Source of the DNA: Lophium mytilinum
Lineage: Eukaryota
DNA length: 64,000 nt
Direction of reading: 5' to 3'
Assembly (NCBI GenBank): GCA_010093605.1
Contig: MU004182.1
Location: 1,211,032 to 1,275,031 of the forward strand
The notes under the pieces were generated by a model that saw nothing but the letters and a program-made list of their open reading frames with translations, did no database searches and had not been told where the DNA came from. Positions 4,239-62,700 of the stretch are shown here, piece by piece. Position numbers and translations under genes: made by a program. Position 1 is the first letter of the stretch. Each line of letters opens with the position of its first letter.

Positions 4239-4915
4239 ATGTCCATCGCAGGCTTCTCTTTCTGGTTCTGGCGCATCATGGAGATCATCACCCTGATCCC
4301 GACGCTGGGCATGCTATCTTACTTCGTGCACGCCTACACCGAGTCGAATTCACTCACACCCACCTCCATCCTGGTGCTGTTCATAGTGTCAGTGCTGGGG
4401 GCAGTATGGGCCGTCGGGACACTGTTCCTGTACGCCCGCGCGAGGCACTCGGCCAGCTTCGTCGCATTCGTCGACCTGCTCTTCATCGGCGCCTTCATTG
4501 CCGGCGTGTATGAGCTGCGCGGCATCGCCAAAGCTGACTGCACCAATTTCACGGCTGGCGGCTTCTACTTCGATCTGGGCCCGTTGGGATACATTGGACG
4601 CAACTCGGGGAACAAGTGGGCAATCAATACGGACAAGAATTGCGCCATGTTGAAGGCATCGTGGGCCTTTGGAATCATGAATTGCATCTTCTTTGCATTG
4701 ACTTTCGTAAGTTTTACCTTTAATGCATTGTCTGTAGACCATTTACTAACAAGTCATAGTTCTTCGCCCTCCTCGTCCACCGCCATCACCGCGATGATCG
4801 CGTCGTTGTCAAGCGCGAAACCAGCCGCACTTCTCGTCACGGCACCCGAGGCCCCTCTTCCCGCAGCCCACGCCGTTCGCACCACAGCAGCAGGAGGAGC
4901 CACTACGTCGTCTAA
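4239..4915 (+). CDS. MARVEL/membrane-associating-domain four-TM protein
   Basis: Four hydrophobic segments and a C..LKASWAFGIMN motif. Intron 4707-4759 (GTAAGT...CTAAC...TAG) restores FFALLVHRHH... with a basic tail ending TAA at 4915. Confidence 0.75.
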
Positions 4916-23651: not shown

Positions 23652-26265
23652 ATGCCTAAGAAACGGAACACTTGTACGAGATGCTCTATGCGGAGGCAGA
23701 AATGCGACCGGAACATGTAAGCCTTCCTATAACTCTTGGTACGATGCTTGCATTGAGCTCTGTGTGCATGTTACCAATGCTTGGAGTGCTTCAATATGGT
23801 TTCAAGAGACTGGCTGGGATATAAAGTTTATTGAGCCAAGTTTAGCACAAGTTATTGAAGCTCGGAATGCATTAGCTTGTCAAATAGCCAGTGGTCGGTC
23901 GCCAATTAGAAGAACATTCAAGCACTGGTGAGATTGTGTACACAGAGTCACAATCTAGTATTGTACTAAACTACTCTTTGTCTCGTACTTACTCTCTCTA
24001 GTCCTTGTGGAAGATGCATCCAGAACGGTGAGGCTAGCATATGTACGACCGAATGGCCGGATGGATACGATCCGCGAATTCATCGCAAGTATCCGACGAC
24101 GAAGGCAGATCATGAAAAGGAAAGTCCTTCGACGCAAGCTGGGTACCCAACGCCTATCGTAACGGACACGACGTCACAAACATCACAAACATCCCCCCCT
24201 CTCGTTTCAAATTCTACTAGTCAGCCGTTGGCAACCGCCAATCCATCTCCCGCCCCTGGACGGACTCAAGATCTTGAATTCATTACTTGGGGGCGCGCAA
24301 AACTTTCCGAGTTCAATCTTAATGGCAATTTTGCTGAGAGAGGCTTGGATACCAGAGTCCTCAATCTCGGAAATAGCTTTTGGCAAACAGAAGAAGACTC
24401 GTCTAACGACCTTGGCCCCCTTTCATCACCTGCACGATCTACCGAGATGAGCTATCTTCAGTCTCTTATACCCTCAAGAGAGCAAGTCTTTGCTATGGTG
24501 CAGTACCATGAGGATTGCTTATTGTGGCATCACGGCTCCTTCCATGGACCAGCCTTCCGTGAAGAGCTGACAAAGGTCTACAAGGACAATAGAATACTTC
24601 AGATTCGAGACTTGGACTGGAGGTGGACGGCGCTTCTATTTGCCATCCTTGCAGGCAGCTCTTTGTGTGCCCCAGACGGCATTGCTTACTCGTGGGGACT
24701 TACGAAACCGGAGAAGGACAGGCTGAGTAGGCAATGGTACCACGCGATCAATTCGAGCCTGATATTAGGGCAATACACGTCAAAGTATCACCTCTACACG
24801 ATCCAAGCTATAGCCACATCGTCGTTATCTGCGCACGTCTTGGGGTACTCTAAGCAACAACTTTCGCTTCTCAGTGTGTCAATCACTGTTGCTAGAGGCC
24901 TTAGTTACCACAGGATAGGTAAGGACGCTGAGCTAGAGCTTGATCGGGCTGGGCCAGATCTCACCCCAACCCAGCGGGAGGCAGTCATTCAGAGAGAAAC
25001 TGGTCGACGGCTATGGTGGCATCTCTGTACGCAAGGTAAGATAAAATCCCATCACTCCCATCACTCCCATTACTCCCATTACTCCCATTACTCCTATTAC
25101 TCCCATTACTCCCATTACTCCCATTGTTCCTATTACTTCCTACAGCTTTGCCTTTATTTCACATGAACTGATTCTAATACCAGACTGGCTCTGTACTACT
25201 ACGACGAGAATGTACTCAATACAAAGGCGACATTATACCACGACTGCGCCTCTCGACTACGATGACGAGACAATGAAACCTCTGGCGAAAGGGATACCTG
25301 GAATCACTCACTACACCAACCATTTACATAAGCTCGCCCGACTAAATGTGGAATTTTTCGAGGCCTTACAAGATGCCCAGAACGCTGAGGCCGAGTACGA
25401 CGTAGTGCTCAGATACGATTCTAAGATGCGCGCTTTGTACGCAGACGCCCCACCGTTCAAGACCACAAACCCTGAAGATGATCCTCGTCACCAATGGGTT
25501 CGGTGGGCCAACCGTGGTATAGAACTCTCCCATAACCATAAAGTCATCAAGGTCAACCAGTTTTTCCTGGGACGGAGCTTCTCGGAACCACGATACGCTT
25601 TCTCGAGATGGTCAACTATTACGGCGTCTAAGAATATCATCCAGATAATGTTAAAGGACTATGGAGAAGCGAGTCCGTGTTTCTGGATTGAGCAGGCTTT
25701 CTTGGTCACTGCCTGTATCAATCTCGTATTGGATATTTTGAACCGACCAGAAGAAGACAGCCCCGAAATCAAGGAACATTTGGCCTTGGTCCAGGCTGCC
25801 GTCAACACTCTGCAAAAATTCCCGAACAGCTCCATAGCTAGTCATGGAATCCATTTGCTCTCTACCTTGTCCAAGGACCGTGGCCGAAAACCAGACAAGA
25901 ACGACCAACAGCCCGAAGGTCAAAGTGCGACAAATTTCAGTAGCAATGTGCCTAGCGGCCAGGTATACCTACCGAATAAACGCCAGAAACGGTACAACAG
26001 CTCGATATTTCAATCTCCGTTCAGCACAGACATAGCACTTGCGAACCCCATGCCAGCCACTGACGGATCAACATCTATACCGAATATACTGAACCCAATG
26101 CAGTTTGATGGCAATGGAGACAATCTTAACATGCTCAATCAGTATCCATGGTATGCTAATGCTCACGATGTGGATTTCGGAGACATGCTCAATACATTTC
26201 CTCCCCAGTCAGGCTTAGAAGCAAACAATTTCTTCGAAGATGTCTTCAACCTCAATTTCTTCTAG
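23652..26265 (+). CDS. Zn(II)2Cys6 transcription factor with fungal middle-homology region
   Basis: CTRCSMRRQKCDRN|IPCGRCIQNGEASIC across intron 23717-24001, and ETGRRLWWHLCTQ|DW across intron 25036-25183. Confidence 0.88.
25047..25138 (+). repeat. Intronic 9-bp minisatellite (TCCCATTAC), about 10 units
   Basis: Directly visible tandem units inside intron 25036-25183. Confidence 0.9.
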
Positions 26266-55492: not shown

Positions 55493-56899
55493 ATGTATAG
55501 TCTCACTGAGAATTTCACAGAGCTGGCGGCTCAAATTGCTTCAAACACCGCTATCATAACCGAGTATCTCAAGAAAAACGGTCTTCCCGAGCCTGATTTC
55601 ACGGTCGATGCTGCAGGGGAACTACCTCAGGTACCAGAAGTACAAGAAGCGCGCCTGAACTTGATCGATGCTACCTCCAAACTCCGCCATCTCGCTACCG
55701 GCGCGGATGAGTACCTTCGGACAGAATCCTTCATTGTAAGACAGCGAGTTCAGAAGCTGGGTCAATAAACTGACTTAAACATTAGATGCACCACGACGAA
55801 GCAGTCTTAAACGTTTTTACGCAATTCAATGTCTGGTCTGCGGTCCCACAGCATGGCAGTGCACCAGTCGCTTCCATCGCATCGACCACGGGGTTACCCG
55901 AGGAAAAGCTCCGCCGCCTACTAAAGCACGCATTCACGATGGGACTCTTTGCTGAGACCTCACCGGGATCATGGGAGATCGTGCATACAGGAAGCTCGGC
56001 GTACACGTATAGAAACCCTTTGATTAAAGCCTGGGTTGGCCATAACCTCGAGGAATGCCTGCCAGCGTCCATCCGCCTACCAGACGCACTCCGCAAGTAT
56101 ACTGACAGCCAAGAGCCGGCGCACTGTGGCGTTGCTGTCAATTTCTACCCCGACGCTCCGTCAGATACGACGCTCTTCAACTGGTTTGAAGCCGCTCGTG
56201 AGGGAGAAGAGACCGGCTGGCGGGCTCGACGCTTCGGGGAAGCTATGGCGAGCTTTTCTGAAACAGGCAGTGCGGACATCGCACACGTTAACGCTGGATT
56301 CGACTGGGACAGTCTCGGCGAGGCAACCGTTGTTGATGTACGTCTCCTCACCCCCGAATGCGCTCACATTCATACTAAAACACTCTCAGATCGGCGGCTC
56401 TATCGGCCATGCTTCCATCGAGCTGGCTTCCAAACACCCGAAGCTCAAGTGCATTATTCAAGATTTCCCAGAGCTCGAATCGCGAGCCGACGCTCTCGTC
56501 CCCGCCGCACTCAAATCGCGCGTCACGTTCCAGGCCCATAACTTCTTTGAGCCGCAACCCGTCGTTGCGGAAGTGTATTTCTTGAAGCACGTTCTCCACG
56601 ACTGGTCTGACAAGTATGCTATCAAAGTCCTGAGGCAGCTCGTCCCGGTCTTGAAGGCGGGCTCGCGCGTCATCCTTATGGAGTGTATTGTGCCACCGCG
56701 TGGTGCAGTGCCGGATTCGATTGGGCGAAATATATCCGGGCTGGATCTGCAGATGATGGTGATGGCTAATTCCAAGGAGAGGAACCCGGAGGAGTGGACT
56801 AAGGTAGTCAAGGAAGCGGATGAGAGGTTCGACGTAAAGGCGTTCGTGCAGCCACCTGGGAGCGCGGCGGGAGTGATCGAGATTGTTTGGAAGGGCTAG
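55493..56899 (+). CDS. SAM-dependent O-methyltransferase (family 2, secondary-metabolism type)
   Basis: Motifs VVD|IGGSIGH, IIQDFP, AHNFFEPQP, YFLKHVLHDWSD and KER. Introns 55736-55785 and 56338-56389; TATAAA at ~55364. Confidence 0.9.
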
Positions 56900-58037
56900 G
56901 AAGCTCAGTTGTGGTTGTCTGCTGATGGGGGGCATACATACGAGAGCGAATGATTGCCAGGAATCTCTGGCAATCATGTTTTTTGCGAATCTTTAGAAGC
57001 CAAATCTATGAGCTCAGGATCATGGCTCGTCTTTAAGAAGGGAATTGATCATACAATGAGATTACTGGTTCTCTGACTGAGGTCTCAACGATCGGCAAAC
57101 TGGTAGAGACCTTCGAGTTGACGAACAATGGCGCGGTGCCTGATCGGTTGCTGCAAGCCTTGCCTTCTTCAAATGAGCTGGATTCCGGGCTCAGCAATGG
57201 CTTTGTTTCCAACCGTTTCAGCTCTTTGTATTTGCTACTTCTGTATGGGTATCCAGCGTTGGCTCTCCTTTATTGAACCTAGCAACGTGATCATTGCGAG
57301 AAACATCACCGAACATTTCTGAAGGCCGAGCATATGTCATTGGTAGTATAGAAGGTGTGCTTCTTCTGGGATCTAGATGAAAACAGTCGTGGTTTGCTTC
57401 GCGGTGATTGTGACAAGCTCCTCTAGTAGTATACCAGCCCGAGCCCTGTAGTCCCTTCCCGCGCATGTGTACCCTTCCTCGTCATTATATAGCATCGTCC
57501 CCATCAATTAAACAGCAGAGACGAGTAAGCTAGGTCCAGACGCGCCCAGGTACTATCAATCGGGTCCAGGGGTGTTGGTTCCGGCATGGGAGCTGTATTG
57601 CGAGACCGTTCAGCTTCGTTACCAAAAAAAGGTCTTCGCAGTCATTCCATGGCGGAGTGTAGTCTTTGGTGATCCTTTATTATCCACGGAGCGGAGGCAT
57701 CGTGGAGACGTAGGAGGCGCTGAGACGCAAGTTGAGGTAGGCTACTAAAATCGTCGAGTCTCCCTAAGACACCGTCAGTGAACTGTTTTCTGCGCCTTCG
57801 AAGACAGACGCCAATTTCGCGTATTGCAACTTCAATCTCCTGGGCGAAAGATGTTCCTGTTGAAAGAGAGAGCCGTTGGGGGTGAAAGTGGTTGTGTTCT
57901 GAGCTTTGATGTTCGTCCCCCACACACGTCCCTGCCGCTAACACTCAAATTGGAGCCTGGCCCCATTCTTTCGCCTGTCCATTTTTACAAAGCTTATATA
58001 CTGATATTTTTTGGCCACAATCAAAATCACCCAGTAA

Positions 58038-58180
58038 GGTCTGTTGGTCTAGTGGTATGATTCTCGCTTAGGGTTCACCTTAAGTCGTTTGCGAGAGGTA
58101 AGCATCATCATCAAATCACTATTCAGCATTCCATAACTAACAACCTCATCAGGCCCCGCGTTCGAGTCGCGGACAGACCC
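58038..58180 (+). tRNA. tRNA-Pro(AGG) with canonical intron 58074-58089 and a second, spliceosomal-type intron 58098-58152
   Basis: The spliced product GGTCTGT TG GTCTAGTGGTATGAT T CTCGC TTAGGGT GCGAG AGGCC CCGCG TTCGAGT CGCGG ACAGACC C is a fully paired 72-nt cloverleaf. T-run terminator from ~58193. Confidence 0.9.
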
Positions 58181-58891
58181 ACAATCTGATTATTTTTTGC
58201 TTTTTTTTGGTGCTCTATATCATATATAGATATTAAGCAGTGTGTGTGTGTGAGAGCGGCATGTCTTTTTAGAGGTTAGATGGGATAGAAGAACAACCAG
58301 GGAATTCATTTTGTGGAAGTGTTACGGAGGTTCGCGTTTCGTGGTAATCTTTTGTAAGATGGGGTGCACTTTACGTAGACAGAGGAGTTGTGTCGCCCTG
58401 GAAAACGTAGCACAAGCCTTAGCAGCTTCTTGAGAGGCGTCTTTATATTTTCTCGAGGGGTGAGTCTAAACCTGTGCTGTATGTAACTCTAAGGCGAAAG
58501 CATTTCTTCGAGTTATCTAGCTTCGGACTTAATCTATAACCCTTAATTAAAAACGATATCTAGTTCAGCGGTAATGGCTATATCACAATGAAAGTGCATG
58601 TGGATCAAGTAGAGGATGCCCCGGCGTGGCATTACTCTTAAAGTCACTAATCGAGTCATAGATCTGTCAAGCACATATGGAGTTTGTTCACGACGCAGAA
58701 GTAAAGTGATGAAAGGTATGAACAAGAATTCGAGTACTCTATATATACCTTGATTGTTACAATACACTATGCCCGTCTTGGTCTAAAAATCCCAGGAAAG
58801 GTGGTATTTTGGGAGTTCGAATTAACTACCCTTAGTGTCTACCTTCTTAATCATGCGATATGGTTTCACGCACAAAAGAAGGCTGGCGGCC

Positions 58892-60140
58892 TTACTCTGC
58901 ATCCGTCGGCGCTACTGGAGGCGTGTCATTGACTTGAATACCGCCCCTCTTCTTTTCCTGGCTATCATGGAATGGTAGCTTCCATCCGCCCTCTGCCTCT
59001 GGCGTGCTCAACCATAGCCGCATCAAGTGACGGCGCGGAGCTGGGGGCGGGTAGTCCTTGTATGCAGTCCTAGCGTGTAGAACATGCTCGTTGGAGAGGA
59101 ATTGAATGTCGCCGATATCTAGAATCATATGCAAGCTGAGACGCACACAGGTGTCCTCAAGAATTTGGGCAGCACGTAGCTGAGCAGGCGAGAGTGGAGG
59201 AATGCGGCCGGCATCAGAGAAGCGGGTAAGAGATTTGACGTAGTAGGGATCCCATCTATGAGGTGAATTAGCTTTTGCGTGTGGTACAGCTTGGGCTTTC
59301 ATACTTGGAGTACACCCTCGGGTTCTCCCCTTTCTCCAAATAGAAGACCGACGTCTTTATCCACTCCTCCTCTCCCTTGCTGGTCTCCCCTTTGCGATCG
59401 AAATACCATTGCGGCTTCACTAGCTCCTCCGCAACATCCGGATGCTCCTGCTGCAGCACATTCCACACATGATGCGAACTCACCAGATCGCTTTCTCCGC
59501 CCTCGAGTGCTTTTGCTACGCAGAGAAGTCCTACGAGGTCACTGTCGTCGGCATGGAAGAATTGGCGCGCATTTGTGCGGTAGATCCGCACTTTATCGAT
59601 CTGGCTGCTGTCTTCTCCGAGATCCTTGACATGACCTAGGACGTGTCCGCGGCCGTTTTGAGATACGAAGTAGCCCAGATAAGTTCCTAGACCCATGTAT
59701 GCGACCGCGGATTTGCGAAGACCCCATTCGTCCACCGGAAAGCCTTTGAAGAGGAGGAATCCTTTGCCGTTGAGCAATTCGTGCCTCAAACTTTTAAGAA
59801 ATGTGCTGAACTCTGGGAGTGTGAAGTTCGACTGCGAAATCCCGGTCAACGGGGTTCCGGAGGCAATGAAGGCATCGGCGGCAGCGCTGATTTCAGCAAT
59901 CTCGGAGGCAGAAAAGGGGTGAGTCCAGCGTTCGGGGTTGCTGGCATAGTCTGCGGCGTCCCAGACTGTGGGGCCGGTGATGGTCTTGGGGAAGGCGGAG
60001 TAGGGTTGGAGAAGGTCGTAGAGGGGAGGGTGCTGGCCCGAAGTCTTGATGCCGTCTGGGAAGATGGATTTGGGGGCGGTAGACGGAGAGGAGAGAGTGT
60101 GAGGGGGTGCAGGTGCGGAAGCTGTAAGTGCTGGTGCCAT
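58892..60140 (-). CDS. TauD/TfdA (clavaminate synthase-like) 2-oxoglutarate/Fe(II) dioxygenase
   Basis: FHADD (HxD), GGES, GDIQFLSNEHVLHARTAY and RHLMRLWL. Intron 59304-59256. Confidence 0.9.
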
Positions 60141-60849
60141 TATGGGGTTTGGCTGTGGAGAGTTGACGTTTGTAACTGAATTAGATGAGTGACAGCAACA
60201 ACCAGTGATATCGAAGGTTGTACGAGTTTTACTTGTATTCAAGATGCAATTGAGAGTAAAGAGAACACAAGGGTTTTATATATCGGAGTACGGAAATGAC
60301 GCGACTCTTGCACATCCAACAAAGGGCGTCATAAGGCTTTTATGGAAAAAAGCATCTTACCCCTCCATCCACCCTTGGTACTACCGATGGCGAAATCTCC
60401 GAAGCACGAGCGAAGCACGAGCGAAGCACGATAACGGCAGATTTGTCCATGTAACTGCGTAGGTGGGATTGCGTGATTGAGACCTTGTCAGCACGAGATG
60501 GACCACTACTGGCGTAGTGGAGAAAGGGCGCGATGAAGTCAACCAAGGGTCCAAACCATGCCCCGCACCGAGCCGGACTATTCTGTGTGCCAAGAGGGGT
60601 GCCCTTGCCGGACTGCTTTGGAGGGGGGCGGGGAATGCTGGTACTCGTTAAAGTCTCGCGTCGTGACACAGTCCACCGCGCCACCATCACTTCGCAATTA
60701 TGAGTCAACGCCATATTCGTCTCCGTCCGCGCTTTGCAAAGAGATTTCAGCGGACTCAAAACCTTCTGAAGTGATGCAGCTTTCGGCTACCTCGAGTTCT
60801 AACTGTATAATGATTAGATAATTTTGACCAACTTCAAAAACATCAGTTC

Positions 60850-60991
60850 GGCCCAATGGTCTAGTGGTATGATTCCTGCTTTGGGTAGCACACGCTCATG
60901 ATTGCAGGAGGCCCGTGAGTACACACCACACCATCATGCTCCGGACTCATTGCTAACCATAACACAGCGCGTTCGAATCGCGGTTGGGCCC
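60850..60991 (+). tRNA. tRNA-Pro(TGG) with canonical intron 60886-60902 and a second, spliceosomal-type intron 60915-60967
   Basis: The spliced product GGCCCAA TG GTCTAGTGGTATGAT T CCTGC TTTGGGT GCAGG AGGCC CCGCG TTCGAAT CGCGG TTGGGCC C is a fully paired cloverleaf. T-runs follow from ~61001. Confidence 0.9.
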
Positions 60992-61258
60992 CGAAAATGA
61001 TTTCTTTTTGCATTTTTTTAGACCTTTATGCTTCTCCATCGTGAGCGGACAAGATGCGCATTGAAACTGGGGCTGCATTTTTTATGGGCCATGCCAAGAG
61101 GACTAGCTTAACTGATAGTTCTATGAAAACAAACCTATGCACCAAGCTTTCCCACATTCTTCATATATCCGCTACACCCAAATCGCCCCCGTTTTTACAT
61201 CCGAGATGCTCAATAGCAGTCTAAATATGGGCTGTAACTTCATCGGGCAAAAGAGAAC

Positions 61259-61282
61259 GGACCCAACCGCGATTCTAACGCG
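61259..61282 (-). other. Inverted copy of the 3' exon of tRNA-Pro(TGG)
   Basis: Minus strand reads TAG|CGCGTTAGAATCGCGGTTGGGTCC versus CAG|CGCGTTCGAATCGCGGTTGGGCCC at 60965-60991 (22/24 identical in the exon). Confidence 0.7.
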
Positions 61283-61947
61283 CTAGTATGTTTCAATTTC
61301 AATCAGACATTACAGACCACCTCCGACAATACTATGTGACTGGCAAAGCAATAAATACTCACCTTACTCAGGGTTTTCCAACCCCCCTGCTACGCAGAGG
61401 GGTTTCAAGACCAACGGCTTATAACAACCGTTCTCGACTTTTTTAGACACTTGAAAGACGCCAGACAGTGTTGAAAAGACGGCAAGGAGTACGAAAACAC
61501 ATGTCAAATTCAAGAGCCGAGCAGAACCTGTCGCGACGGGTGGTTGAACTCTGCCCCTTTCAATTCACTCCCTCAAACTCTTTACGTCGTGCTCGAATCG
61601 TGCATAATGTCCCAGGACACCTCAAACGCCGCTTTTACACAGATATTTCACTAAAGATACCTCTCAGATTCCAGAGTAGCGCAATACCATCCCTGAAATA
61701 CGCTCCAATCAGACCCCTTCTAATTCATGAACTACAATTCTTTACGTCCCATTTATCTCCCCTTCAACTCCACGAAGCCACTCGAACGCCGCTCTCAAGC
61801 ACGCAAGTCTCTTAAGAAAACGTCTCGAATTCAACCGCAGAGAATTCGTTTCTTAGACAGGAGCTCAATCTCGCAGCTGGGCACACACCGTTTGGCACTC
61901 GTTTAGCACTGCTTGGGGTACTTCTACCGGCTCTTAGAAAAGCCCCA

Positions 61948-62700
61948 TGATGTAAAGATTTACAGCTTGAAAATTGAGCTGTCTATTGACTGCCTAGCTA
62001 CTTCGTAACTGGGCTGCTCCCTGCAGTGGTATCAAGCGAGTAAGAGAGGAGCTTTTGTAGAGAGATTTTCAATGTGCTGGAAGTTATGGCGAGAAATATG
62101 ATGTAAGTTCGGCGCAGTGGATATTAGACTGCCTCTTGACTAGCCGGCGACACACTAGCTGAGCTACTCCTTACAGGGGTGAGGAGCGAACAAGAGTGGC
62201 GCGTTTGTAGAGAGATTTCAATGTGCTGGAAGTTATAGCATGTTCGTGTAATGTAATTTTGAGGCAGTGGAAATCGAACTACCTCTTAGCTTGCCAGCGA
62301 CACACTAGCTGGGCTACTCCTTACAGTGGTGTCAAGCGAGCGATAGGGAAGCTTTTATAGAGGTATATCTAAGGCGCTGAAATTCATGGCATATTCATGT
62401 GATGTAAAATTTGAAGCTGTGGAAATCAGACTACCTTTTGGCCGACCGGCTATACTCTAGCTGGGCTGCTTCTTACAGTAGCGAGGGGCGAGCAAGAGTG
62501 AAGGTTGAGTAGGGCAATATGCAATGTGCTAGAACTCATAGAATGTTTATATGATGTAAATTTAATGCAGTGGAAATCTGATTACCTCTTGACTGGCCGG
62601 GTAACCGCTCGCTGGAACACTCCTCACATTGGTAAGAAGTGAGCAAGAGTAGAGCTCGAGCAGTGGCATACCCGTGTACACTGACTTATGACATATGATG
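61948..62700. repeat. Degenerate tandem array, ~151-bp unit, about 5 copies
   Basis: T(G/A)ATGTAA recurs at 61948, 62099, 62248, 62400 and 62552, with shared GCAGTGGAAAT, CTAGCTGGGCTACTCCTTACAG and CAATGTGCTGGAAG blocks. Confidence 0.85.

What the first reader, a model, noticed from the sequence alone, without database searches (positions are those of the whole stretch)
58038..60991. Both tRNA genes in the window carry such introns, suggesting a lineage-wide spliceosome-dependent tRNA system
Seen: the two inserts are unrelated apart from splice signals, sit 4 nt apart in tRNA numbering (45/46 versus 49/50) and occur in different isoacceptors with covarying stems, which suggests independent gains in functional genes. 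Both lie between the A box and B box, leaving the internal Pol III promoter intact. Both are A/C-rich with no T run longer than 2, unlike some mRNA introns here (e.g. GTAAGTTTT at 4707), as expected if Pol III must read through them. Inference: such genes may be common here and missed or called pseudogenes by standard tRNA annotation.
Basis: partly seen in the sequence, partly recalled or inferred. Interest (0 to 1): 0.9.

Follow-up and report, generated by a model that had tools for sequence, protein, structure and literature searches.

The report
Spliceosome-type introns inside tRNA-Pro genes
Two proline tRNA genes of a filamentous fungus each carry, besides the usual small tRNA intron, a second 53-55-base insert built exactly like a messenger-RNA intron, and the same design recurs in other fungus-like DNA, which would mean the mRNA splicing machine helps to make a tRNA.

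Summary
The window has exactly two tRNA genes, tRNA-Pro(AGG) at 58038-58180 and tRNA-Pro(TGG) at 60850-60991. Each has an ordinary 16-17-nt intron at 37/38. Each also has a second insert (55 nt at 45/46; 53 nt at 49/50) with GTAAGC/GTGAGT, CTAAC 11-12 nt before the end, and CAG. Removing both inserts gives perfect 72-nt cloverleaves. ARAGORN and Rfam miss or miscall the genes.

One metagenome scan for long tRNA-Pro genes found 13 more genes of the same design. They carry 11 independent insert sequences, and with the window there are 7 positions between 27/28 and 53/54. In all 15 genes, one of the 1-5 boundaries that the cloverleaf allows is GT..AG with a CTRAY branch motif. None of 32 genes with a single long 37/38 intron shows this.

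The inserts lack the bulge-helix-bulge motif. Three orthologous loci keep all 72 exon bases identical while the inserts differ by 8-19%.

Best reading: real spliceosomal introns in Pol III tRNA genes, comparable to fission-yeast U6. No RNA evidence was obtainable. The T-run argument is not significant, and only tRNA-Pro was tested. Ten literature searches found no prior report.

The parts
58038..58180 (+). tRNA-Pro(AGG) gene with two inserts (143 bp; mature 72 nt)
   Evidence: perfect cloverleaf (score 26 of 26) after removal of both inserts
58074..58089 (+). canonical tRNA intron at 37/38, 16 nt (boundary may shift by 1 nt)
   Evidence: outer helix 3 of 3 and central helix 2 of 4 in the BHB test
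58098..58152 (+). spliceosomal-type intron, 55 nt, between tRNA positions 45 and 46 (variable loop): GTAAGC ... ACTAAC ... CAG
   Evidence: unstructured on its own (MFE 0.0); no other copy in the window
58193..58208 (+). T6 and T8 runs 13-28 nt after the gene: Pol III terminator-like
57995..58017 (+). upstream TATATA (-43..-38) and TTTTGGCCA (-29..-21), both shared with t2
   Evidence: a promoter role is inferred
60850..60991 (+). tRNA-Pro(TGG) gene with two inserts (142 bp; mature 72 nt)
60886..60902 (+). canonical tRNA intron at 37/38, 17 nt
   Evidence: BHB test central helix 3 of 4, outer 3 of 3, inner 3 of 3
60915..60967 (+). spliceosomal-type intron, 53 nt, between positions 49 and 50 (5' strand of the T stem): GTGAGT ... 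GCTAAC ... CAG
   Evidence: (the only boundary the cloverleaf allows is GT..AG)
61005..61019 (+). T5 and T7 runs 14-28 nt after the gene: Pol III terminator-like
60806..60830 (+). upstream TATAAT (-44..-39) and TTTTGACCA (-28..-20)

Best explanation
Both loci are functional nuclear tRNA-Pro genes of a filamentous ascomycete, and each is interrupted twice. One interruption is an ordinary 16-17-nt tRNA intron at 37/38, which the tRNA splicing endonuclease and tRNA ligase remove. The other is a genuine U2-type GT-AG spliceosomal intron: 55 nt in the variable loop at 45/46, and 53 nt in the T stem at 49/50.

Most likely route (inferred). RNA polymerase III transcribes the whole unit, using the internal A and B boxes and an upstream TATA-like element, and stops at the oligo-T run. 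The insert keeps the variable-loop/T-arm region from folding, so the enzymes that need the L-shape cannot act yet: RNase P and RNase Z, and the endonuclease, which measures from the mature domain. The spliceosome therefore removes the insert first, in the nucleus, as it does for the Pol III-made U6 snRNA of fission yeast. The cloverleaf then folds, the ends are trimmed and the 37/38 intron is cut out.

The introns probably arose repeatedly, plausibly by reverse splicing into tRNA followed by reverse transcription and recombination.

Shown here: the anatomy, the signals at structure-dictated boundaries, recurrence in other organisms, exon conservation, and the absence of the endonuclease motif. 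Inferred: actual splicing, the polymerase, the order of steps and the origin.
For: 1. After removal of both inserts, both genes give perfect 72-nt tRNA-Pro cloverleaves. Twelve of their 14 differences are compensatory.
2. Signals match the host's own introns. The 5' ends are GTAAGC and GTGAGT, CTAAC lies 11-12 nt from CAG, and the lengths are 53-55 nt. Eight ORF-supported putative mRNA introns in the window are 47-91 nt long. The two inserts are 2 of only 3 strict-consensus matches in 128 kb of both strands.
3. Recurrence. The pattern started at 126 places (118 metagenome loci plus the 2 window genes). Of these, 55 were ordinary tRNA-Pro genes beside another T loop, 9 had no matching acceptor strand, and 62 were long-insert genes, 48 of them unique. 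Of the 48, 32 have a single 30-96-nt insert at or next to 37/38, and 0 of 32 allow GT..AG. The other 16 have two inserts. Fifteen of the 16 score 26 of 26; each has exactly one GT..AG boundary among its 1-5 structure-equivalent boundaries and a CTRAY motif 8-22 nt from the 3' end.
4. The 15 introns are 49-64 nt long. Their 5' ends are GTAAGT x5, GTAAGC x3, GTAAAT x3, and GTAAGA, GTGAGT, GTATGT and GTACGT once each. The branch A lies 9-17 nt from the end. Positions are 27/28, 28/29, 33/34, 45/46, 49/50, 52/53 and 53/54.
5. Apart from one orthologous trio, no two inserts are alike (z<3). That gives 13 independent sequences sharing only the signals.
6. In the trio L014/L021/L108, exons are 72 of 72 identical in all three pairs. 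The insert is 81-92% identical, the canonical intron 84-89%, and the downstream flank 83-89%.
7. BHB test (central helix >=3 of 4 and outer helix >=2 of 3). Long 37/38 introns pass in 26 of 33 cases (the 32 single-insert genes plus L022), the short canonical introns of the two-insert genes in 6 of 15, and the GT-AG inserts in 1 of 15.
8. Pol III hallmarks. The A-box and B-box regions are uninterrupted. T runs of 5 or more follow within 40 nt in 14 of 15 genes, at 13-28 nt in the window. Both window genes share upstream TATA-like and TTTTGRCCA elements at the same distances. No insert has a T run of 5 or more.
9. Precedent. The U6 review lists spliceosomal introns in fungal U6 (a Pol III gene), in U1, U2 and U5 snRNA genes, and in ascomycete rDNA (PMC5855946, passages read).
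Against: - There is no RNA evidence of any kind for expression, splicing, lariats or mature tRNA from these genes.
- No genome is held. It is therefore unknown whether intron-less tRNA-Pro(AGG/UGG) copies exist that could make these copies dispensable.
- Spliceosomal processing of Pol III transcripts is documented only for a few snRNA genes. I recall, without having checked here, that mammalian Pol III transcripts were reported not to be spliced.
- The organisms behind the metagenome contigs were not identified. 'Fungus-like' rests on the intron style and on near-identity of the tRNA exons to the window's.
- One of the 16 two-insert genes (L022) does not restore a cloverleaf (22 of 26, no anticodon loop). 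Some such copies therefore decay.
- T runs are not significantly depleted.
- The search pattern could only detect inserts between positions 27 and 53/54 of tRNA-Pro. The rule that inserts lie between the boxes is therefore not independently tested.
Confidence: 0.72

Rival explanations
1. Silent or decaying copies. The two loci are tRNA-Pro pseudogenes, or dispensable paralogues, that happened to acquire intron-like inserts. Working tRNA-Pro comes from intron-less genes elsewhere in the genome.
For: No expression data exist. No genome is held, so paralogues cannot be counted. One related metagenome gene (L022) is degenerate. A. niger tRNA-Pro(AGG) genes are listed at 91 bp with only a 19-nt intron (PMC6108506, Table 1 passage), so intron-less-at-45/46 versions do exist in related fungi.
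Against: Fifteen of 16 two-insert genes restore a perfect cloverleaf only at a GT..AG boundary. Exons are 72 of 72 identical across an orthologous trio whose inserts and flanks differ by 8-19%. Acceptor and anticodon stems covary perfectly between genes. Terminators and upstream elements are retained.
Confidence: 0.1
2. The introns are spliceosomal, but the genes are read by RNA polymerase II. The tRNA would be released from a spliced Pol II transcript, so no Pol III-spliceosome coupling is needed.
For: Splicing is normally coupled to Pol II. Upstream TATA-like elements exist. Polymerase occupancy was not tested.
Against: The internal A- and B-box regions are intact. T5-T8 runs follow 13-28 nt after each gene, and T runs of 5 or more follow in 14 of 15 genes overall. 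The TATA-like element sits at about -40 from the mature 5' end; I recall this as the position of upstream TATA elements of fission-yeast Pol III genes.
Confidence: 0.1
3. The inserts are non-canonical tRNA introns removed by the tRNA splicing endonuclease through a bulge-helix-bulge motif, as in Archaea, Cyanidioschyzon and nucleomorphs.
For: Non-canonical-position tRNA introns are known (PMC3978253, passages read). The same scan also met a T-loop insert and a permuted tRNA-Pro in marine contigs.
Against: Only 1 of 15 inserts passes the BHB test, against 26 of 33 long 37/38 introns. The inserts are unstructured (MFE 0.0 and -3.9 kcal/mol, no lower than shuffles). This reading leaves GT..AG plus CTRAY in 15 of 15 genes unexplained.
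Confidence: 0.03
4. The inserts are copies of a mobile introner-like element or another short repeat that landed in tRNA genes.
For: Introner-like elements are known in some fungi (recalled). tRNA genes are common targets of mobile elements.
Against: No second copy of either insert was found in the window or in the 118 loci. Inserts in different genes are unrelated. Neither window insert shows a consistent target-site duplication (read from the sequence). The whole genome could not be searched.
Confidence: 0.03

Closest known systems
mRNA-type (spliceosomal) introns in fungal U6 snRNA genes (Schizosaccharomyces pombe, Rhodotorula hasegawae and others; Tani & Ohshima 1989/1991 and Canzler 2016, as cited in PMC5855946, passages read)
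   Same: A short GT-AG intron with a branch motif sits inside a small, highly structured RNA gene read by Pol III. Positions vary between species, and gains are thought to be repeated.
   Different: The host is a tRNA, not a spliceosome component, so 'proximity to the active site' cannot explain the gain. The same 72-nt RNA also carries an endonuclease-type intron, so two splicing systems must act on one molecule. Splicing is shown for S. pombe U6 but not here.
Spliceosomal introns in rDNA of ascomycetes, and in U1, U2 and U5 snRNA genes (Bhattacharya 2000; Takahashi 1993/1996; as cited in PMC5855946)
   Same: mRNA-type introns in non-coding RNA genes of ascomycetes, including genes not read by Pol II.
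   Different: Different polymerase (Pol I or Pol II) and much longer exons. None is a tRNA.
Non-canonical-position tRNA introns with a bulge-helix-bulge motif (Archaea, Cyanidioschyzon merolae, nucleomorphs; PMC3978253)
   Same: tRNA genes with more than one intron, at positions such as the variable arm, T arm and anticodon stem.
   Different: Those introns are defined by the BHB motif and cut by the tRNA endonuclease. Here the BHB test fails in 14 of 15 inserts, and GT..AG plus a branch motif is present in 15 of 15.
Canonical eukaryotic tRNA intron at 37/38 (review PMC10275265, passage read)
   Same: Each of the 15 genes also has one (11-19 nt).
   Different: The second insert is elsewhere and is 49-64 nt long, with spliceosomal signals. 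In the passage read, the review mentions the spliceosome only to contrast it with pre-tRNA splicing.
   Same: A spliceosomal-looking intron in a nuclear tRNA gene.
   Different: A different kingdom and isotype. I did not examine it.

Membership tests
U2-type GT-AG spliceosomal intron | GT at the 5' end and AG at the 3' end, at the boundaries needed to restore the host RNA | tested here: met
t1: 1 of 5 allowed boundaries. All 15 two-insert genes: exactly one GT..AG boundary each. Single-insert controls: 0 of 32.
U2-type GT-AG spliceosomal intron | Extended 5' splice site like the host's (GTRNGT-like), and a branch motif CTRAY shortly before YAG | tested here: met
   GTAAGC and GTGAGT; CTAAC with the branch A 12 and 11 nt from the end. 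The window's putative mRNA introns show the same signals, although they were selected using them.
U2-type GT-AG spliceosomal intron | Length within the host's intron range | tested here: met
   55 and 53 nt, against 47-91 nt for 8 ORF-supported introns and a 49-nt intron skipped by RNA-like contigs.
U2-type GT-AG spliceosomal intron | Removed by the spliceosome through a lariat | not testable with these tools
   No RNA data cover the loci.
Pol III type-2 (tRNA) gene | Internal A-box and B-box regions, an oligo-T terminator, and a cloverleaf product | tested here: met
   Positions 8-19 and 52-62 are uninterrupted in both genes. T6+T8 and T5+T7 runs follow downstream. The product is a perfect cloverleaf. 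The box numbering is recalled, and polymerase occupancy was not tested.
BHB / endonuclease-type tRNA intron (for the long inserts) | Two 3-nt bulges separated by a 4-bp helix at the splice sites | tested here: not met
   1 of 15 inserts passes a relaxed test, against 26 of 33 long 37/38 introns. t2's insert scores central helix 1 of 4. The single pass is t1, at an alternative boundary (after position 43).
Introner-like element / repeat family | Multiple similar copies | tested here: inconclusive
   No copy was found in the 64-kb window or in the 118 loci, and inserts are unrelated between genes. The genome was not available.
tRNA pseudogene | Broken cloverleaf, with no constraint on the exons | tested here: not met
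   Stem, loop and variable-region score 26 of 26. Differences are compensatory. Exons are 72 of 72 identical in the orthologous trio. Expression was not tested.

The most novel reading that the evidence does not exclude
In a broad group of filamentous ascomycetes the spliceosome is a routine, obligatory step in making tRNA-Pro, and perhaps other tRNAs. Spliceosomal introns have entered Pol III tRNA genes many times independently: at least 13 unrelated introns at 7 positions. They sit beside a canonical endonuclease intron in the same 72-nt RNA. Decoding of proline codons would then depend on two unrelated splicing machineries, and on Pol III transcripts being handed to the spliceosome. Current tRNA annotation of these genomes would be systematically incomplete.
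Probability: 0.35. Interest if true: 0.93.

Novelty: new variant of a known kind. Interest (0 to 1): 0.85.

Why it matters
- **tRNA biology.** Textbook accounts keep the two nuclear splicing systems apart: the spliceosome for Pol II transcripts, and endonuclease plus ligase for tRNAs. A tRNA that needs both would be a new host class for spliceosomal introns. It would also be a second, much more widespread, natural case of the spliceosome acting on Pol III transcripts.
- **Intron gain.** The exons are 72 nt long and almost invariant, so many independent insertions can be dated and compared. That makes intron gain into abundant structured RNAs directly testable, including the reverse-splicing model.
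- **Annotation.** ARAGORN and the Rfam tRNA model miss these genes or give them wrong isotypes. tRNA gene counts, and codon-usage or tRNA-adaptation analyses, for such fungi may lack whole isoacceptor families.

Tried and rejected
- **RNA evidence.** The look-up of sequencing runs listed 7 runs and no RNA holder. I laid X3-X6 on 56500-62500. X3's contigs skip the mRNA introns 59256-59304 and 61286-61371, so they behave as RNA. No contig of any of the four runs lies on either tRNA locus.
- **Whole genome.** None is held. Copy numbers, other isotypes and introner families could not be checked.
- **Metagenome records behind the loci.** They cannot be searched by handle. Neighbouring tRNA genes on the 138-kb and other contigs were therefore not examined. 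Within the 300-nt flanks of the 14 two-insert loci there is no other tRNA gene.
- **Taxonomy.** Pfam shows a HET-domain protein, the Pol epsilon catalytic subunit, a TauD-family protein and an O-methyltransferase. Together with the short CTAAC introns this points to a filamentous ascomycete. The protein atlas gave no useful taxon.
- **T-run depletion.** Tested and not significant.
- **BHB/endonuclease reading.** Rejected.
- **Repeat/introner reading.** No support in the sequence available.
- **Chance.** Rejected.
- **Literature.** Ten full-text searches found no paper describing spliceosomal introns in tRNA genes. I read passages of PMC5855946, PMC3978253, PMC3879985, PMC6108506, PMC10275265, PMC11146597, PMC6619189, PMC8007984 and bioRxiv 10.64898/2026.07.09.736142; none mentions it. 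Subscription journals are not covered, and no supplements were opened.
- **Earlier notes of this scan.** Nothing for this genome or these sequences. One unchecked note on an algal tRNA-Ala gene turned up.
Full report
**What is in the window**

The region holds two genes on the + strand, 2.8 kb apart. They are the only tRNA genes in the 64 kb.
- ARAGORN with default settings reports none.
- The Rfam library reports nothing at gathering thresholds, and nothing at E<=10 on 57900-61100.
- ARAGORN with its intron option miscalls the first gene as tRNA-Gly with a 59-nt intron. It finds the second gene only at a lowered threshold, miscalled as tRNA-Gln.

Reading the sequence and removing segments by coordinates in a script gives two clean genes.

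| | t1, tRNA-Pro(AGG) | t2, tRNA-Pro(TGG) |
|---|---|---|
| Gene | 58038-58180 | 60850-60991 |
| Exon, positions 1-37 | 58038-58073 | 60850-60885 |
| Canonical intron at 37/38 | 58074-58089 (16 nt) | 60886-60902 (17 nt) |
| Middle exon | 58090-58097 | 60903-60914 |
| Long insert | 58098-58152 (55 nt) | 60915-60967 (53 nt) |
| Last exon | 58153-58180 | 60968-60991 |

With both inserts out, ARAGORN calls tRNA-Pro(agg) and tRNA-Pro(tgg), 72 nt each. They matter, because each gene carries two different kinds of intervening sequence.

**Are the long inserts intron-like beyond chance?**

- t1's insert starts GTAAGC, has ACTAAC with 12 nt after the branch A, and ends CAG.
- t2's insert starts GTGAGT, has GCTAAC with 11 nt after the branch A, and ends CAG.

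I enumerated every way of removing one or two segments. Each result was scored only on tRNA features: anticodon-stem and T-stem pairing, the two loops, and the variable region. For t2 the cloverleaf allows a single boundary for the long insert, and it is GT..AG. For t1, five boundaries are equivalent and one is GT..AG.

A strict intron pattern (GTRAGY, 20-45 nt, CTAAC, 6-14 nt, YAG) matches only three places on both strands of the window: an mRNA intron at 4707 and these two inserts. Simulated windows gave 0.58 matches on average.

Eight ORF-supported putative mRNA introns in the window are 47-91 nt long and show the same signals, which were also used to select them. RNA-like contigs of run X3 skip a 49-nt intron at 59256-59304 and an 86-nt intron at 61286-61371.

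The two mature tRNAs differ at 14 of 72 positions. Twelve of these form six compensatory pairs.

**Does it occur elsewhere?**

No genome is held for this window. I spent the single metagenome scan on a pattern that does not presuppose splice signals: 18 nt of the tRNA-Pro D arm, a 65-125-nt gap, and a T-loop motif.

With the two window genes, the pattern starts at 126 places:
- 55 are ordinary tRNA-Pro genes followed by another gene's T loop.
- 9 have no acceptor-matching 3' strand.
- 62 are long-insert genes, 48 of them unique.

The 48 unique genes fall into two sharply different classes.
- **Single insert (32 genes).** One insert of 30-96 nt at or next to 37/38. None allows a GT..AG boundary, and only 1 of 32 has a CTRAY motif at the right distance.
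- **Two inserts (16 genes).** A short intron (11-19 nt) at 37/38 plus a second insert of 49-64 nt. Fifteen of the 16 score 26 of 26. Each has exactly one GT..AG boundary among 1-5 equivalent boundaries, and each has CTRAY 8-22 nt from the 3' end. The sixteenth, L022, does not restore an anticodon loop and looks degenerate.

The 15 good genes (t1, t2 and 13 metagenome genes) place the insert as follows:

| Insert after position | Genes |
|---|---|
| 27 | L002, L105 |
| 28 | L012 |
| 33 | L028, L102, L110 |
| 45 | t1, L053 |
| 49 | t2 |
| 52 | L042 |
| 53 | L024, L048, and the trio L014/L021/L108 |

- The 5' ends are GTAAGT x5, GTAAGC x3, GTAAAT x3, and GTAAGA, GTGAGT, GTATGT and GTACGT once each.
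- The branch A lies 9-17 nt from the end.
- Apart from the trio, no two inserts resemble each other (z<3). That gives 13 independent sequences that share only the signals.
- Neither window insert has another copy in the window or in the loci.

**Are these working genes?**

- L014, L021 and L108 are orthologous loci from three contigs. The exons are 72 of 72 identical in every pair. The GT-AG insert is 81-92% identical, the canonical intron 84-89%, the downstream flank 83-89% and the upstream flank 45-81%.
- Acceptor stems differ between genes but always pair.
- T runs of 5 or more follow within 40 nt in 14 of 15 genes. In the window, T6+T8 and T5+T7 runs lie 13-28 nt downstream.
- Both window genes share a TATA-like hexamer at about -43/-38 and TTTTGRCCA at about -29/-21.

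**Which machinery?**

I applied a relaxed bulge-helix-bulge test: central helix at least 3 of 4 and outer helix at least 2 of 3, taking the best over equivalent boundaries.
- Long 37/38 introns: 26 of 33 pass (the 32 single-insert genes plus L022).
- Short canonical introns of the two-insert genes: 6 of 15 pass.
- GT-AG inserts: 1 of 15 passes.

The two window inserts are essentially unstructured. Their MFE values are 0.0 and -3.9 kcal/mol, no lower than shuffles. The endonuclease reading explains none of the GT..AG and branch signals. Spliceosomal removal is therefore the best-supported mechanism.

The closest precedent is the mRNA-type intron of the Pol III-transcribed U6 snRNA gene of fission yeast and other fungi. 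Related cases are the spliceosomal introns of U1, U2 and U5 snRNA genes and of ascomycete rDNA (PMC5855946, passages read).

An insert in the variable loop, T stem, anticodon stem or anticodon loop prevents the mature domain from folding. I therefore infer that the spliceosome acts first, and that end trimming and endonuclease splicing follow. This order, the polymerase and the act of splicing itself are all inferences. No RNA data cover the loci.

- **T-run depletion.** It is true that neither window insert has a T run longer than 2. None of the 15 inserts has T>=5; two have T4. But composition alone predicts only about 0.9 inserts with T>=5 among the 13 independent ones. The summed longest runs are 30 against 37.0 expected, and no single insert deviates (P 0.18-0.89). 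The window's 8 putative mRNA introns also have no run above 4. The data are compatible with Pol III read-through but show no selection for it.
- **Between the A and B boxes.** This is true for all 15 genes. However, my pattern required positions 9-27 and 53-61 to be contiguous, so it could not have found anything else.
- **Lineage-wide system.** The claim is supported only in that tRNA-Pro genes of this design recur in several contigs of fungus-like origin. Other isotypes, and the presence of intron-less tRNA-Pro copies, are untested. The window's organism is a filamentous ascomycete, judging from a HET-domain protein and the intron style. The organisms behind the metagenome contigs were not determined.

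**Comparison with the known, and novelty**

Ten full-text searches found no description of spliceosomal introns in tRNA genes.
- In the passage read, the 2018 U6 review lists snRNA and rRNA genes as non-coding hosts of such introns, not tRNA genes.
- The 2023 tRNA review mentions the spliceosome once, as a contrast to pre-tRNA splicing.
- A review of disrupted tRNA genes treats only BHB introns.
- An A. niger study lists tRNA-Pro(AGG) genes of 91 bp with a 19-nt intron. It discarded 14 ARAGORN models whose introns exceeded 100 nt.
- One unchecked note of this scan (e1-4091646) reports an mRNA-type intron in an algal tRNA-Ala gene.

The library lacks most subscription journals, so an earlier report cannot be excluded.

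I rate this a new variant of a known kind: spliceosomal introns in non-coding, non-Pol II genes, here in a new host class. The unprecedented feature is coexistence with an endonuclease intron in the same small RNA.

**Verdict**

I put confidence 0.72 on the best explanation, real spliceosomal introns in functional tRNA-Pro genes. The main open points are direct RNA evidence and the breadth across isotypes and lineages.

Noticed in passing
L007 and L043 (metagenome loci, marine contigs): A tRNA-Pro(CGG)-like gene carries a 26-nt insert inside the T loop, after about position 59. It has no GT..AG, so it looks like a non-canonical-position endonuclease-type intron in a marine eukaryote.
   Followed up: no
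L116, minus strand, about 400-490 of the oriented locus: A 3' half of tRNA-Pro (anticodon-stem 3' strand through the acceptor end) lies directly upstream of a 5' half. This is the layout of a circularly permuted tRNA gene, next to an ordinary intron-containing tRNA-Pro.
   Followed up: no
window 57995-58017 and 60806-60830: Both tRNA-Pro genes share a TATA-like hexamer at -43/-38 and the motif TTTTGRCCA at -29/-21 relative to the mature 5' end. These may be upstream Pol III promoter elements of this fungus.
   Followed up: partly
L022 (metagenome locus): A tRNA-Pro-like gene has a GTGAGT...CACAG insert after about position 32, but no anticodon loop can be restored (score 22 of 26). It is probably a decayed relative of the two-intron genes, and it still has an oligo-T run downstream.
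   Followed up: partly
window 59256-59304 (-), 61286-61371 (+), 60176-60360 (-): RNA-like contigs of run X3 skip these stretches. The first lies in a TauD-family dioxygenase gene located between the two tRNA genes. The third joint is marked 'between: not known'.
   Followed up: no
window 25036-25183 (+): A putative 148-nt intron consists largely of tandem 9-nt units (CCCATTACT-like).
   Followed up: no
L105, within its 64-nt insert: The GT-AG insert contains a B-box-like GTTCAATTC flanked by a short inverted repeat. This may be coincidence.
   Followed up: no
L014, L021, L108, L024, L048 (inserts at 53/54) and L042 (52/53): The intron's terminal AG abuts TTCGA/TTCAA. At DNA level the B-box region therefore still reads (A/C)AGTTCRA, with the intron's last G standing in for G53. 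My pattern could only find such cases, so whether this is a constraint is open.
   Followed up: partly
metagenome loci with a single insert (e.g. L037, L062, L061, L099): These carry very long canonical 37/38 introns (up to 96 nt) in tRNA-Pro genes. Most have strong BHB-like pairing (26 of 33).
   Followed up: partly
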